Made by a program: the position numbers and the translations under genes. Source: a virus. Taken from it: 64,000 bases of DNA. A model generated the notes under the pieces. The model did not search any database. It saw only the letters and a list, made by a program, of their open reading frames with translations, and was not told where the DNA came from. The stretch covers positions 1-64,000 of the IMG/VR virus record IMGVR_UViG_3300017917_000616; one strand, 5' to 3'. Positions 14,231 to 22,027 of this stretch are shown here, one piece after another (position 1 is the stretch's first letter; every line of letters starts with the position of its first letter).

Positions 14231-14635
14231 TTATTTTCCTTTCTTGGTTAGATTCTTTAAATTATTTAGTAGTGTTTGACTACGACTAACTTCTTTCTTT
14301 TTCTTTTGGTGCGTCTGATGGGATTCGAACCCATTACCATGAGTTTTAGAGGCTCTTGCTTTCCTATCAGCTACAGACGCATCAGGATCAACTAACTCAG
14401 TCAATCCTTTAAACTTATCATAAGTGTCAATTATAATTGATTTATAAGTATCTTCAATCTTAATGGGTAAGTCTAGATGAATAGTTAGACGAGGACCCTG
14501 TTCCTCATTAATCATACCGTCACCATATATAGTACCTATAAAAGGTATCTTGTTATACTTACCGAATACACGTGTACCAAACTCAAAATATGGTTTAGGA
14601 CGATTTTTCTCAAAATATTCTGCTAGACTTGCCAT
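14231..14635 (-). CDS. Hypothetical protein whose 3' part runs through a tRNA gene
   Basis: 134-aa ORF; the residues ASVADRK...HQ are encoded by the tRNA sequence. Confidence 0.7.
   Translation of the reverse strand: MASLAEYFEKNRPKPYFEFGTRVFGKYNKIPFIGTIYGDGMINEEQGPRLTIHLDLPIKIEDTYKSIIIDTYDKFKGLTELVDPDASVADRKARASKTHGNGFESHQTHQKKKKEVSRSQTLLNNLKNLTKKGK
14307..14380 (-). tRNA. tRNA with CUA anticodon (amber suppressor type), encoded CCA
   Basis: GCGTCTG-TA-GCT-GATAGGAA-AGC-A-AGAGC-CTCTAAA-ACTCA-TGGTA-ATGGG-TTCGAAT-CCCAT-CAGACGC-ACCA. Perfect 7-bp acceptor and 5-bp T stems; U33-CUA-A37; anticodon stem has two mismatches. Confidence 0.8.
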
Positions 14636-19015: not shown

Positions 19016-20158
19016 TCACAATTTCCCAATAATGTGAGTGTTTATAAAAGGTTTAACGTCATCGGTATAATCTTTATTATTTTTGAAAAACATTGTGGGG
19101 TTGACTGATTCCATTGATTGTAGCCAATTACTTTTCCAAGCCTGAAAAAACATTTCTTCGTTATAATTGCTAAAAAAATAATGATATGAATGATTTATCA
19201 AAATACCCTGTTTGTTGGTTTGGTGCTTAGAGAAATCCCATTTAGGGTAAATTATTGACTTCACAACTTGGTCAAAACTTTTAGACCTAACCATCCATGA
19301 TGATGAGTCAATTTTTTGTAGTAACATTTTTGAATGTAGAACCTTAGGATTCTTTTTTAGAAAATCCCAAACTAAATGTGCTTGCTCAGTGACAATCTCT
19401 GGCATATCAGGAGTCCAATAAAAATACTCCATACAAGATTGTTTCATTAGCGTAGCGTTATCTGTAAATAAAAATCCATATGAATCTGAATTCATATAAG
19501 GAATTACTTTATCACTTCCGATAATTACGCATACCTTTTTATATTTTTCTGATAGCTTATCAACATACTTGTTTATGTATTTGTATCTTTTATGAACATG
19601 ATAAGATACTGGCACATTTAAGTACGTCCATAAATCACTTGAATCTTCTATAGTCAAATCATTACAAGAATCTGAACAATGTATTTTTATTTCTGGATTA
19701 GAAATCCTTAATTTTTCTAGTTCTGGTTTAGCTACTAAAAAGTGTTCGCTAACCATATTTGTGTTTTCTACTGACAGATTTACTCGATACCCTGACTTTT
19801 CTACTACAGTAGCGTGATGATCTGTCCAGACTTCATCTAGCAAAATATTATTATCTATGAATGCCTTTAAGATATTGTCGCTATCTGAACCACCAGAGAA
19901 AGACAAAATAAGATAATCGTAAGTATCTCTTAATTGTTCTGCTCTTAACCTATATAGGTCTAACAGATTAGCATTGATCCTAGGCTTTTTTGCTTGGTCA
20001 CCAAATATTTTTTCTTCAAACGTCCACTCTACTTGTTCTTTTGTCCTATTTGAATAAACACAAGCATTGTACTTATGATAAAAATTCTTATTCCCTACTT
20101 TATAGTAGCCGAACTTAGTATCACATTGACCAAAATCATCTGTTTGTATTGTTGACAT
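19016..20158 (-). CDS. PP-loop (adenine nucleotide alpha-hydrolase-like) protein A
   Basis: LSFSGGSDSDNIL PP-loop, GSDK, EYFYWTPDMPEIV. Confidence 0.75.
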   Translation of the reverse strand: MSTIQTDDFGQCDTKFGYYKVGNKNFYHKYNACVYSNRTKEQVEWTFEEKIFGDQAKKPRINANLLDLYRLRAEQLRDTYDYLILSFSGGSDSDNILKAFIDNNILLDEVWTDHHATVVEKSGYRVNLSVENTNMVSEHFLVAKPELEKLRISNPEIKIHCSDSCNDLTIEDSSDLWTYLNVPVSYHVHKRYKYINKYVDKLSEKYKKVCVIIGSDKVIPYMNSDSYGFLFTDNATLMKQSCMEYFYWTPDMPEIVTEQAHLVWDFLKKNPKVLHSKMLLQKIDSSSWMVRSKSFDQVVKSIIYPKWDFSKHQTNKQGILINHSYHYFFSNYNEEMFFQAWKSNWLQSMESVNPTMFFKNNKDYTDDVKPFINTHIIGKL

Positions 20159-21041
20159 TCTTTTTACTCATCAAGTCTTGTACATTTTTCATGTGACGGT
20201 CGATAGCTAAGGCAGAAATGTCTTTGGGGTAAACTAAATTATTTTGTTTATAAAATTCAATAATCTCTTTACTTGATAGCAAGTCACTAAAAAGTTTTTG
20301 ATATCTTTGTTGTATATCTAACGGAGTAGATTTTTTCATAAAAAACCCAGTAGCTATCAAATCAATATCAGTTTTGATTGACAATTCTTTGGGTATAGGA
20401 ATGTTGGCTGTATTATTGTGCGTGGCTGCTATACCATTTAGCAAAGATCCTTGAATCTGTGTTATAGCAGTAACTGACGTTAGGTTAGCAACATCTATTG
20501 AATCTGACATTAGAGCACCAAGTGTTGGCGTATCGCCAGGGAAGGGTACTATAGTTATATTTGGAATATGCTGTAGTGACCTTTCAACAATAAACTTTTG
20601 GCTGATACTAGAAACACCCATTGTAACATGTCTTTTTTTAGTTTCTGCTAAGAATTGATCCCATGTTGTAATCTTAGATTTTTTACTAGTTACAAAAATA
20701 GTATGTATATCTGAAACATACATCATAGGAGATAAGTTTTTGTATAATTCTAAATTGGATTCGTTTTCGCTAAGTTTCAGAGCCAATGTGGTTCCAGCTA
20801 ATAACAAATGGTTACCTGTGTTGTCGTTTAAAAATTCTCTAAGGGCTATTAAACCATCTGCTCCGGGTTTATTTACTACAACAATATTAACGTTTAGTTT
20901 CTCTATCGCCTCTTTTTGAATTCTTCTAGCTAGTGTATCTGATAATCCACCGGGTGGCTGCTGTATGTACAATTTAATTGGTTCATTGGCATGACACAGA
21001 ATAGTAAATGCGAATAATAATAAAGTCAGTAATTTTTTCAT
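20136..21041 (-). CDS. Bug/TctC tripartite tricarboxylate transporter substrate-binding protein A
   Basis: Signal peptide MKKLLTLLL, PPGGLSDTLARR, VVNKPGADG, VPFPG. Start at the second ATG (21041). Confidence 0.82.
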   Translation of the reverse strand: MKKLLTLLLFAFTILCHANEPIKLYIQQPPGGLSDTLARRIQKEAIEKLNVNIVVVNKPGADGLIALREFLNDNTGNHLLLAGTTLALKLSENESNLELYKNLSPMMYVSDIHTIFVTSKKSKITTWDQFLAETKKRHVTMGVSSISQKFIVERSLQHIPNITIVPFPGDTPTLGALMSDSIDVANLTSVTAITQIQGSLLNGIAATHNNTANIPIPKELSIKTDIDLIATGFFMKKSTPLDIQQRYQKLFSDLLSSKEIIEFYKQNNLVYPKDISALAIDRHMKNVQDLMSKKNVNNTNR

Positions 21042-21058
21042 GAACATATTTATAATAG

Positions 21059-21081
21059 AAAAGGCACCGAAGTGCCTTTTT
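21059..21081 (-). terminator. Terminator with cUUCGg tetraloop downstream of the tmRNA
   Basis: AAAAAGGCAC-TTCG-GTGCCTTTT; A/T tracts on both sides, so potentially bidirectional. Confidence 0.85.
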
Positions 21082-21396
21082 CTGAGGTTCTGTTGCGAGG
21101 CCTGTCTTGCCCCAGGCTGCTTTAATTAAGCTGCCAATGCGTAAACTTCATCGTTTGCGTCTATAGTTTTGCTTGATTTACGGTCATCGCCTACCGTGCT
21201 GTCCACTCTGTTACTCTTTGCCCTGTCGAAACCATGACTGGCCCATCATAAAAGGACTACCATGAATACCACTGCTACGATTGCGAATCCCATCGCAAAT
21301 CTTGTTAAGTCATCCATTCTAATCTCCTTTATGGTGGACCAGGCGGGAGTCGAACCCGCGTCCAGAACACTTTTCTCTTTGCTTCATACAGCAATA
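21082..21396 (-). ncRNA. ssrA: Circularly permuted (two-piece) tmRNA; tag (A)ANDEVYALAA
   Basis: The acceptor piece with T-arm and ...CTGGTCCACCA ends at 21332, upstream of the 5' piece GGGCCAGTCATGGTTTCGAC starting at 21244. G3-U70 pair. Tag ORF 21158-21126. Outer ends are approximate. Confidence 0.92.
21246..21317 (-). CDS. 23-aa hydrophobic peptide in the tmRNA intervening segment (MDDLTRFAMGFAIVAVVFMVVLL)
   Basis: AAGGAG SD immediately after CCA, ATG 21317, TGA ending 1 nt before the tmRNA 5' G. Confidence 0.55.
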   Translation of the reverse strand: MDDLTRFAMGFAIVAVVFMVVLL

Positions 21397-21402
21397 ATTT
21401 AT

Positions 21403-21431
21403 AGTGTAGTTTATTTATTGTTATTTGTCAA
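21403..21431 (-). promoter_or_regulatory. sigma70 promoter TTGACA-N17-TACACT for the tmRNA
   Basis: -35 at 21431-21426, -10 at 21408-21403. Confidence 0.75.
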
Positions 21432-21830
21432 TCAGCGTTTGCCCATACGGAACAAATAGATTGGGATATCACGTTCTTTTCGTTTTAATGCGTCACTAAC
21501 TCTATGATGCCCATCTATAATATAGTACTTTCCATTCCTGTCATAGACTACAGGATACTTATCATATTCTGGGTAAAACGCTTCGCCACCGCCTGAGTTG
21601 TCTAACCAGTCTTGTGTAGCAAGTAATTGACTAGGTACTATATTGATGACCATGGGCTTGTAACCTGCATTGAGCATATCATCTACCTCAGTATGTAGTT
21701 CTGCTACATCCTTGAATTTACTAGGGTCAGTAAACTCAGCATCCCAATGTGATAGGTAATCACCCAATTTGATATTAGTAGGTACTCTTTGTAGACCGAA
21801 ATTTTCCGTAATTAAATCAGTGATACGCAT
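21432..21830 (-). CDS. ParB/sulfiredoxin-like domain protein
   Basis: L.ATQ, PVV....G.YYIIDGHHR..A. Start taken at MRITDLITE. Confidence 0.78.
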   Translation of the reverse strand: MRITDLITENFGLQRVPTNIKLGDYLSHWDAEFTDPSKFKDVAELHTEVDDMLNAGYKPMVINIVPSQLLATQDWLDNSGGGEAFYPEYDKYPVVYDRNGKYYIIDGHHRVSDALKRKERDIPIYLFRMGKR

Positions 21831-21835
21831 CTTTG

Positions 21836-22027
21836 TCAAAAATTAAATTGAAAAATCTTTGTCAAATACTCATTGCGTAATTCATCTTCTGTTTTACTTT
21901 CATAATCAGAGGATTCTAAATCATGCTGAGTATCGTATATCGTCAATGCCAAAATTAATTTGTCTTTTGGCATTGAAACTGCTTTGGCAACGGACTGTCC
22001 ATTATAATATTCAATTAATGTTTTCAT
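21836..22027 (-). CDS. Hypothetical protein (63 aa)
   Basis: Intact ORF with ATAAATA 5 nt upstream. Confidence 0.6.
   Translation of the reverse strand: MKTLIEYYNGQSVAKAVSMPKDKLILALTIYDTQHDLESSDYESKTEDELRNEYLTKIFQFNF

What the first reader, a model, noticed from the sequence alone, without database searches (positions are those of the whole stretch)
21245..21331. A peptide gene hidden in the tmRNA intervening segment
Seen: directly after the CCA comes TAAAGGAGATTAGA-ATG, then 23 codons (MDDLTRFAMGFAIVAVVFMVVLL: a charged N terminus plus about 17 hydrophobic residues) and TGA, filling the segment almost exactly. The SD-containing CATAAAGGA pairs with TCCTTTTATG at the other end of the segment, so the stem that presents the precursor for processing also hides the SD. 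Inference: the normally discarded spacer is a mini-mRNA for a single-pass membrane peptide, similar in size to type I toxins or small regulators. Its translation would compete with, or follow, tmRNA maturation.
Basis: partly seen in the sequence, partly recalled or inferred. Interest (0 to 1): 0.8.

Follow-up and report, generated by a model that had tools for sequence, protein, structure and literature searches.

The report
Membrane-peptide gene inside phage tmRNA spacer
The 87-base spacer that is cut out when this huge phage's two-piece ribosome-rescue RNA (tmRNA) matures carries a conserved, selected gene for a 23-residue membrane peptide, and related phages use the same stem-closed spacer as an exchangeable slot for other tiny genes.

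Summary
On the minus strand lies a circularly permuted tmRNA gene (21057-21444). Its intervening segment (21331-21245) holds AAGGAG, a 6-nt spacer, ATG, 23 codons and a TGA that ends 1 nt before G1 of the coding piece.

- Unbiased scan of viral contigs: 18 of 91 unique spacers have this layout. All 18 are strongly hydrophobic; the other 73 are not.
- The window's family now has 32 unique variants, none frame-broken.
- Codon-position diversity is 0.42/0.21/0.51 (permutation p = 1e-4).
- pN/pS is 0.51 in frame, against 0.84 and 1.79 in the other two frames.
- A near-invariant Gly uses all four codons.

Only the closing stem is conserved as RNA structure. It buries the SD: opening cost is 2.6 kcal/mol on the nascent RNA and 15.4 on the folded precursor.

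Near-identical tmRNA genes carry different cargo, or none, so the spacer is a swappable slot. Bacterial beta-type spacers examined are 25-99 nt and have no such ORF.

Translation and peptide function were not shown. I found no paper describing this. This scan has noted the same phenomenon before on other DNA (55 notes, at least 43 genomes).

The parts
21403..21431 (-). sigma-70-like promoter of the tmRNA precursor (TTGACA, 17 nt, TACACT)
   Evidence: Consensus scan, 10 of 12 matches. It lies just upstream of the first position matched by RF04321 (21393). Promoter use was not tested.
21332..21393 (-). acceptor (3' tRNA-like) piece of the two-piece tmRNA, ending in the encoded CCA (21334-21332)
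   Evidence: Rfam RF04321 and RF01850 alignments; ARAGORN permuted tmRNA.
21245..21331 (-). intervening segment (87 nt) removed on maturation; stem-closed cargo slot
   Evidence: It lies between CCA and G1 of the acceptor stem 5' strand GGGCCAG at 21244-21238, with a G3:U70 pair. The same geometry is seen in 193 viral loci.
21324..21329 (-). Shine-Dalgarno AAGGAG, 6 nt before the ATG
   Evidence: Sequence. It is conserved in the family A leaders. Five of its six bases are paired in the closing stem.
21246..21317 (-). 23-codon ORF plus TGA: small single-helix membrane peptide, family A
   Evidence: ORF list. 32 unique homologues, none frame-broken. Codon periodicity and pN/pS. Residues 7-23 have a mean Kyte-Doolittle value of about 3.0 (my arithmetic on the sequence).
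21320..21333 (-). 5' arm of the closing stem (C75, A76 and the SD-bearing leader)
   Evidence: MFE fold. RNAalifold consensus of 32 sequences, with compensatory U-A to A-U changes at one pair.
21247..21259 (-). 3' arm of the closing stem: the last four codons and UG of the stop codon (anti-SD)
   Evidence: The UGAU before G1 pairs with ACCA and is conserved in ORF-less spacers too.
21057..21244 (-). coding piece of the tmRNA: 5' acceptor strand, tag frame 21158-21126 (ANDEVYALAA, stop TAA) and terminator hairpin 21080-21057
   Evidence: Rfam RF01850 alignment including the 3' hairpin; ARAGORN tag; sequence.

Best explanation
The spacer of this phage's circularly permuted tmRNA gene is also a real micro-gene. 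It is transcribed from the tmRNA promoter as part of the precursor and encodes a 23-residue peptide with an acidic N terminus and one transmembrane helix (family A). The gene sits in a slot closed by a stem of about 12 bp that continues the acceptor stem. In that stem the SD pairs with the last codons, and UG of the stop codon pairs with C75-A76.

Most likely (inferred) a ribosome loads on the nascent RNA before the 3' arm has been made. It translates to the UGA next to the RNase P site and leaves. The stem and the acceptor helix then form, further initiation is shut off, and the tRNA-processing enzymes release the two tmRNA pieces and discard the spacer. Peptide output would thus be tied to tmRNA synthesis.

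The peptide is released before it can leave the ribosome tunnel, so it would insert into the host inner membrane after translation. It acts as a dispensable accessory factor. Its target is unknown. My leading guess is a membrane-active or membrane-protein-modulating micro-protein, with low confidence in any specific target.

Shown here: the anatomy, conservation, selection in frame, the conserved closing stem, and cassette exchange. Inferred: translation, its timing relative to processing, membrane insertion and function.
For: - Bimodality: an unbiased scan of viral contigs gave 91 unique spacers of 72-101 nt. Eighteen have an SD, an ATG 9-15 nt after CCA and an open frame to the UGA at -1. 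In those 18, the Kyte-Doolittle mean of the last 18 codons is 2.2-3.3 and T at codon position 2 is 0.67-0.83. In the other 73, the values are -1.6 to 1.4 and 0.06-0.5, mostly with stops.
- A second scan that did not impose a frame raised family A to 32 unique sequences. ORFs are 21-27 codons and spacers 80-97 nt, and all are intact.
- Site diversity at codon positions 1/2/3 is 0.42/0.21/0.51, permutation p = 1e-4.
- pN/pS is 0.51 in frame, against 0.84 and 1.79 in the shifted frames. The Gly column (31 of 32) uses GGA, GGC, GGG and GGT, and the Ala column uses all four codons.
- RNAalifold finds conserved pairs only in the acceptor and closing stems. The ORF interior has none.
- The SD region is 92% paired in the MFE folds of 50 ORF-bearing spacers.
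- The opening energy of -13..+6 is 4.3 kcal/mol on the nascent RNA, 13.3 on the folded precursor and 8.8 on the excised spacer. For the window the values are 2.6, 15.4 and 10.7.
- Nineteen locus pairs have tmRNA flanks at least 93% identical but a different cargo class, for example 99.6% for L024 against L035.
- A degenerate scan for the family A C terminus hit 29 places. Twenty-seven are inside tmRNA spacers and 2 are chance matches.
Against: - There is no direct evidence of translation.
- The folded precursor occludes the ribosome-binding site strongly (15.4 kcal/mol), so translation depends on a kinetic window that I cannot test.
- pN/pS of 0.51 is only moderate. Many changes are V/I/L swaps and pS is near saturation.
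- The last four or five hydrophobic codons are partly dictated by anti-SD pairing rather than by the peptide.
- No homologue of known function was found in Pfam or PHROGs.
- The cargo is absent from most related tmRNA genes, so it is not needed for tmRNA function.
Confidence: 0.72

Rival explanations
1. Translation matters only in cis. A ribosome passing through the spacer keeps the closing and acceptor stems open, or protects the nascent RNA, and so times RNase P and 3' processing of the tmRNA. The peptide itself is a harmless by-product.
For: The stop codon abuts the RNase P site, and the SD is part of the stem that continues the acceptor helix. A ribosome and the folded substrate therefore exclude each other. 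Unrelated peptide families occupy the same slot, which would fit a role that does not depend on sequence.
Against: Amino-acid identity is conserved within family A through synonymous change: Gly with four codons, Phe, and the acidic N terminus. Almost all cargo peptides are single hydrophobic helices rather than arbitrary sequences. Most related tmRNA genes mature without any ORF, as do the bacterial ones examined.
Confidence: 0.1
2. The cassette is a selfish or addictive element of type I toxin kind. It would be a membrane-damaging peptide whose mRNA is kept silent by 5'-3' pairing and is switched on or off by processing. It would spread by recombination at the conserved stem.
For: Size and composition resemble small hydrophobic toxins. 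This comparison rests on my own knowledge and was not tested. The SD is sequestered by pairing with the 3' end. The cassette is exchanged between near-identical tmRNA genes.
Against: I did not look for an antisense RNA or antitoxin. There is no match to toxin or holin families: the best is PHROG holin at E = 0.12. Toxicity is untested. Trimming the 3' arm to free the SD would also remove the stop codon.
Confidence: 0.1
3. The ORF is a chance by-product of a structured, U-rich processing hairpin and is never translated.
For: The UGAU before G1 and the AAAG after CCA are conserved in ORF-less spacers as parts of the stem. A purine-rich 5' arm and a pyrimidine-rich 3' arm favour an acidic start and a hydrophobic end. 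The Coxiella 23S rRNA IVS ORF is reported as probably untranslated (PMC4990558, abstract).
Against: ORF-less spacers with the same stems never show the hydrophobic open frame. The ORF interior has no conserved pairing, yet it shows three-base periodicity and the lowest pN/pS in frame. All 32 unique variants are intact despite length changes. An ATG is replaced by a TTG start in family C with the frame kept.
Confidence: 0.06

Closest known systems
Circularly permuted (two-piece) tmRNA genes, betaproteobacterial type (Rfam RF01850; general model RF04321), including phage copies such as phage Melnitz (PMC9004378) and the tmRNA database of 2025 (PMC11915505)
   Same: Same gene order: acceptor piece, CCA, intervening sequence, coding piece. 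Same acceptor stem with G3:U70, same kind of tag frame ending in ALAA, and the same terminator hairpin. The database paper already notes RNA cargo in an intervening sequence, namely a tRNA-Ala gene and a repeat element.
   Different: Neither paper mentions a peptide ORF in the intervening sequence. The bacterial beta-type spacers examined here are 25-99 nt and have no such ORF. The phage slot is expanded to 72-101 nt and often coding.
Intervening sequences of bacterial 23S rRNA that carry the S23p ORF (Coxiella burnetii; PMC4990558)
   Same: Both are stem-closed spacers excised from the precursor of a stable RNA that contain an ORF.
   Different: That IVS is 428 nt and is cut by RNase III. Its ORF is reported as decaying and probably untranslated (abstract). 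Here the spacer is bounded by tRNA-type processing sites, the ORF has a strong SD and shows purifying selection, and the product is a membrane peptide with no Pfam match.
Dual-function RNAs that also encode a small peptide (for example SgrS/SgrT, RNAIII/delta-haemolysin); comparison from my own knowledge
   Same: One transcript yields both a functional RNA and a small peptide.
   Different: Here the coding part is the portion discarded during maturation, not part of the mature RNA. Translation and maturation use the same nucleotides in mutually exclusive ways.
Type I toxin mRNAs silenced by 5'-3' fold-back (hok-type); comparison from my own knowledge
   Same: [quoted passage not shown]
   Different: No antisense RNA is known here, toxicity is untested and there is no sequence relationship. 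The lock is the extension of a tRNA-like acceptor stem.

Membership tests
Permuted two-piece tmRNA (RF04321 / RF01850) | Covariance-model score above the gathering threshold | tested here: met
   RF01850 scores 146.2 bits (gathering 84). RF04321 scores 142.5 bits (gathering 47).
Permuted two-piece tmRNA (RF04321 / RF01850) | Acceptor piece with encoded CCA lies upstream of the coding piece; the acceptor stem closes across the spacer with G3:U70 | tested here: met
   CUGGUCC-ACCA at 21341-21332 pairs with GGGCCAG at 21244-21238.
Permuted two-piece tmRNA (RF04321 / RF01850) | Tag reading frame with a proteolysis-type C terminus | tested here: met
   ARAGORN gives tag ANDEVYALAA.
Permuted two-piece tmRNA (RF04321 / RF01850) | The precursor is cleaved into two pieces and the spacer is removed | not testable with these tools
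   This needs Northern blots or RACE. Sequencing runs were not available.
Family A spacer peptides (defined here) | SD plus ATG 12-15 nt after CCA, 21-27 codons, acidic N terminus, central Gly, Phe five or six residues from the end, and a UGA 1 nt before G1 | tested here: met
   The window aligns with 31 other unique members at 19-57% identity. G10, F18 and L22 are nearly invariant.
Type I toxin | Small hydrophobic peptide whose SD is sequestered in the mRNA fold | tested here: met
   (in silico only).
Type I toxin | Antisense RNA antitoxin and toxicity on expression | not tested
   I made no antisense search, and toxicity needs an experiment.
Holin | Significant match to a holin family | tested here: not met
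   The best hit is phrog_4898 at E = 0.12 over 12 residues. Pfam gave nothing.
rRNA IVS with S23p ORF | ORF homologous to S23p | tested here: not met
   No Pfam family matches at E up to 1.

The most novel reading that the evidence does not exclude
The stem-closed spacer of phage two-piece tmRNA genes is a general, exchangeable expression slot for micro-proteins. Translation is kinetically gated by folding of the tmRNA itself: ribosomes can load only on the nascent precursor. Each tmRNA made would then deliver roughly a fixed small dose of peptide before the same nucleotides become the RNase P substrate.
Probability: 0.35. Interest if true: 0.8.

Novelty: new variant of a known kind. Interest (0 to 1): 0.72.

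Why it matters
- The tmRNA spacer is treated as waste and lies inside an RNA gene. ORFs under 30 codons there are never called, so a whole set of phage micro-proteins is invisible to annotation.
- This would be a clear case in which the discarded part of a stable-RNA precursor is a selected messenger. Its SD and stop codon double as parts of the processing substrate.
- That gives a compact natural system for studying competition between translation and RNA maturation.
- The slot behaves as a cassette site, which is useful for understanding how phages shuffle small accessory genes.
- The peptides themselves are candidates for new membrane-acting host-takeover factors.

Tried and rejected
1. Read-through fusion with the tag. 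In the window the spacer ORF is in frame with the tag frame, with only the TGA between them. This holds in just 5 of 54 ORF-bearing loci, so it is coincidence.
2. Co-translational membrane targeting of the precursor to membrane-bound RNase E. I rejected this by inference: 19-27 residues cannot emerge from the ribosome tunnel before termination.
3. tblastn of the peptide against cultured phages gave no match. blastn of the tmRNA gene found only the T-arm region in Stenotrophomonas and Xanthomonas phages. Their permuted tmRNAs have stem-closed spacers of 57 and 107 nt without an ORF.
4. Pfam and PHROGs gave nothing significant for nine cargo peptides.
I replaced it with a degenerate DNA scan.
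6. A scan of bacterial genomes with the general pattern gave only 5 loci. One (L199) carries family A, on a 7.6-kb contig binned with a Bifidobacterium MAG, which is probably phage DNA.
7. In a sample of 141 genomes from one bacterial order, 8 passed the family's cut-off and only 4 were clear, high-scoring two-piece tmRNAs. No claim here rests on the unpublished genome G029.
8. Synteny: only L010 shares a neighbouring gene with the window, so context gives no clue to function.
10. No SmpB gene was found in the 92.6-kb record. The record is estimated at 20% complete, so this is not informative.

Full report
**What is there.** The window is the first 64 kb of a 92.6-kb IMG/VR virus record that CheckV rates about 20% complete, so it is a fragment of a very large phage. 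On the minus strand ARAGORN finds a permuted tmRNA (21035-21424, tag ANDEVYALAA). Rfam scores it 146.2 bits with RF01850 and 142.5 bits with RF04321.

Reading the minus strand:
- a promoter-like TTGACA-17-TACACT at 21431-21403;
- the acceptor piece, ending in CCA at 21334-21332;
- an 87-nt intervening segment at 21331-21245;
- the coding piece, starting with GGGCCAG at 21244;
- the tag frame at 21158-21126;
- a terminator hairpin at 21080-21057.

The segment reads U, AAAGGAG, AUUAGA, AUG, 22 further codons, UGA, U. The ORF list gives 21246-21317 (-), 23 aa.

**Chance.** A complete ATG ORF of at least 20 codons with an SD core occurs in 0.86% of 100,000 shuffles of the segment.

**Relatives, unbiased sample.** I scanned IMG/VR for the T arm, UCCACCA, a free gap of 81-111 nt, and the conserved 5' part of the coding piece. 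This put no constraint on what the spacer holds.
- With the window these give 91 unique spacers of 72-101 nt.
- Eighteen of them share the window's layout: a purine-rich SD, an ATG 9-15 nt after CCA, and an open frame of 19-27 codons to a UGA that ends 1 nt before G1.
- In these 18, the Kyte-Doolittle mean of the last 18 codons is 2.2-3.3 and T at codon position 2 is 0.67-0.83.
- In the other 73, read in the same register, the values are -1.6 to 1.4 and 0.06-0.5, mostly with in-frame stops.

The split is clean. The hydrophobic frame is therefore not a side effect of the generic hairpin. This matters because the AAAG after CCA and the UGAU before G1 are conserved in ORF-less spacers too. UGAU pairs with ACCA.

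**More members and the codon test.** A second scan required only a purine run, an ATG and UGAUGGG, and imposed no frame. It brought the total to 193 loci and 134 unique spacers, of which about 55 are ORF-bearing. The window belongs to the largest group, family A (consensus MNDxLxxLxIGVxVVLVVFALVLL).
- Family A has 32 unique sequences. ORFs are 21-27 codons and spacers 80-97 nt. None has a frameshift or an internal stop.
- Site diversity at codon positions 1, 2 and 3 is 0.42, 0.21 and 0.51. Shuffling the position labels gives p = 1e-4.
- Summed Nei-Gojobori proportions give pN/pS 0.51 in frame, against 0.84 and 1.79 in the two shifted frames of the same alignment.
- The Gly column (31 of 32) uses all four Gly codons, and the Ala column uses all four Ala codons.
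- A degenerate scan for the family's C-terminal eight residues plus stop found 29 places. Twenty-seven are inside tmRNA spacers and 2 are chance matches, so family A was not seen as a free-standing gene.

**RNA structure.** RNAalifold on the 32 family A regions predicts only the acceptor stem and a closing stem of about 12 bp that continues it. C74 is bulged. One pair shows U-A to A-U compensation in 4 sequences. The interior of the ORF has no consensus pairing. Conservation of the interior is therefore explained by coding, not by structure.

The closing stem uses the SD on one side and the last four codons plus UG of the stop on the other. Across 50 ORF-bearing spacers of all families, the SD region is 92% paired in the MFE fold. 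The free energy needed to open -13..+6 is:
- 4.3 +/- 1.7 kcal/mol on the nascent RNA, before the 3' arm exists;
- 13.3 +/- 3.6 on the folded precursor;
- 8.8 +/- 2.9 on the excised spacer.

For the window the values are 2.6, 15.4 and 10.7. This is the basis for the proposed order of events: translation in a co-transcriptional window, then folding, then processing. That order is inferred, not shown. Note also that the C-terminal Leu and Phe codons are partly dictated by anti-SD pairing.

**A cargo slot.** Other spacers carry unrelated small ORFs:
- further single-helix peptides, families B to F; family C starts with either ATG or TTG, with the frame kept;
- an acidic, proline-rich 25-mer;
- two families (G, with a CxxC...HxC pattern, and H, Trp-rich) that have no stop inside the spacer and read 27-66 nt into the tmRNA 5' piece.

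Eight of the 134 unique spacers hold T-arm-like hairpins instead, and one holds a whole tRNA-Asn gene. Nineteen pairs of loci have tmRNA flanks at least 93% identical (80 + 150 nt) but belong to different cargo classes. Examples are 99.6% for L024 (family G) against L035 (family C), and 98.7% for L041 (family D) against L173 (family A). So the content is exchanged at the conserved stem. The window's nearest tmRNA bodies (79-76% identity) carry family A.

**Bacteria.** The same general pattern finds only 5 loci in 185,579 species genomes. One (L199) carries family A, on a short contig of a MAG that is probably phage DNA. The other bacterial-genome spacers examined, of 25-99 nt, are ORF-less. 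No claim here rests on the unpublished genome G029 listed.

**Function.** Pfam and PHROGs give no significant match for nine cargo peptides. Residues 7-23 of the window's peptide average about 3.0 on the Kyte-Doolittle scale, enough for one membrane helix. At 23 residues it must be released before it leaves the ribosome tunnel, so it would insert after translation. The cargo is dispensable for the tmRNA and variable between close relatives, so I read it as an accessory micro-protein. Its target is unknown.

**Literature and earlier notes.** Full-text searches found phage two-piece tmRNAs (PMC9004378) and the 2025 tmRNA database, which mentions a tRNA gene and a repeat element in intervening sequences (PMC11915505). 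They found no description of a peptide gene there. The nearest published analogue is the ORF in the 23S rRNA intervening sequence of Coxiella, reported as probably untranslated (PMC4990558). This scan's own notebook holds 55 earlier notes on the same phenomenon in at least 43 other genomes, with follow-ups reaching similar conclusions. I treated these as leads and ran the tests above independently.

**Verdict.** The coding interpretation is well supported by conservation, frame integrity, codon periodicity and the lack of interior RNA structure. Translation, its timing and the peptide's role remain to be shown.

Noticed in passing
L007, L018, L024, L026, L077, L114 (family G); L126, L141, L174, L186, L132, L193 (family H): Two cargo families have no stop codon inside the spacer and read 27-66 nt into the 5' piece of the tmRNA. 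RNase P cleavage at G1 would turn their message into a stop-less one, which is itself a tmRNA substrate. Family G shows mainly synonymous or conservative changes between members.
   Followed up: partly
L037, L043, L047, L059, L061, L065, L090, L093; L034: Eight of 134 unique phage tmRNA spacers contain T-arm-like hairpins (GGTTCGAnTCC). L034 contains a complete tRNA-Asn(GTT). These are RNA cargo in the same slot.
   Followed up: partly
window 14307-14380 (-): A tRNA with anticodon CUA, an amber-suppressor type that ARAGORN labels tRNA-Pyl. Rfam tRNA scores it 59.5 bits. It has no bearing on the spacer ORF, which ends in TGA.
   Followed up: no
window 21126-21317 (-): The spacer ORF and the tag frame are in the same frame, with the TGA as the only stop between them. 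This holds in only 5 of 54 ORF-bearing loci, so it is probably coincidence.
   Followed up: yes
L242 (Stenotrophomonas phage Marzo, MZ326868) and L243 (Xanthomonas phage Rb1, PQ569993): These cultured phages have permuted tmRNA genes with stem-closed spacers of 57 and 107 nt and no ORF. They could serve as laboratory chassis for testing the slot. In Rb1 the tmRNA is not annotated.
   Followed up: partly
window 19016-21047 (-) and 21432-21839 (-): The tmRNA gene is flanked by a Bug/TctC-like solute-binding protein gene with a PP-loop-like neighbour. On the other side is a 135-aa ORF with a DGHHR motif that looks ParB-nuclease-like. These names are my reading of the translations; PHROGs found no family. 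PP-loop-like homologues occur on L074, L157 and L108.
   Followed up: no
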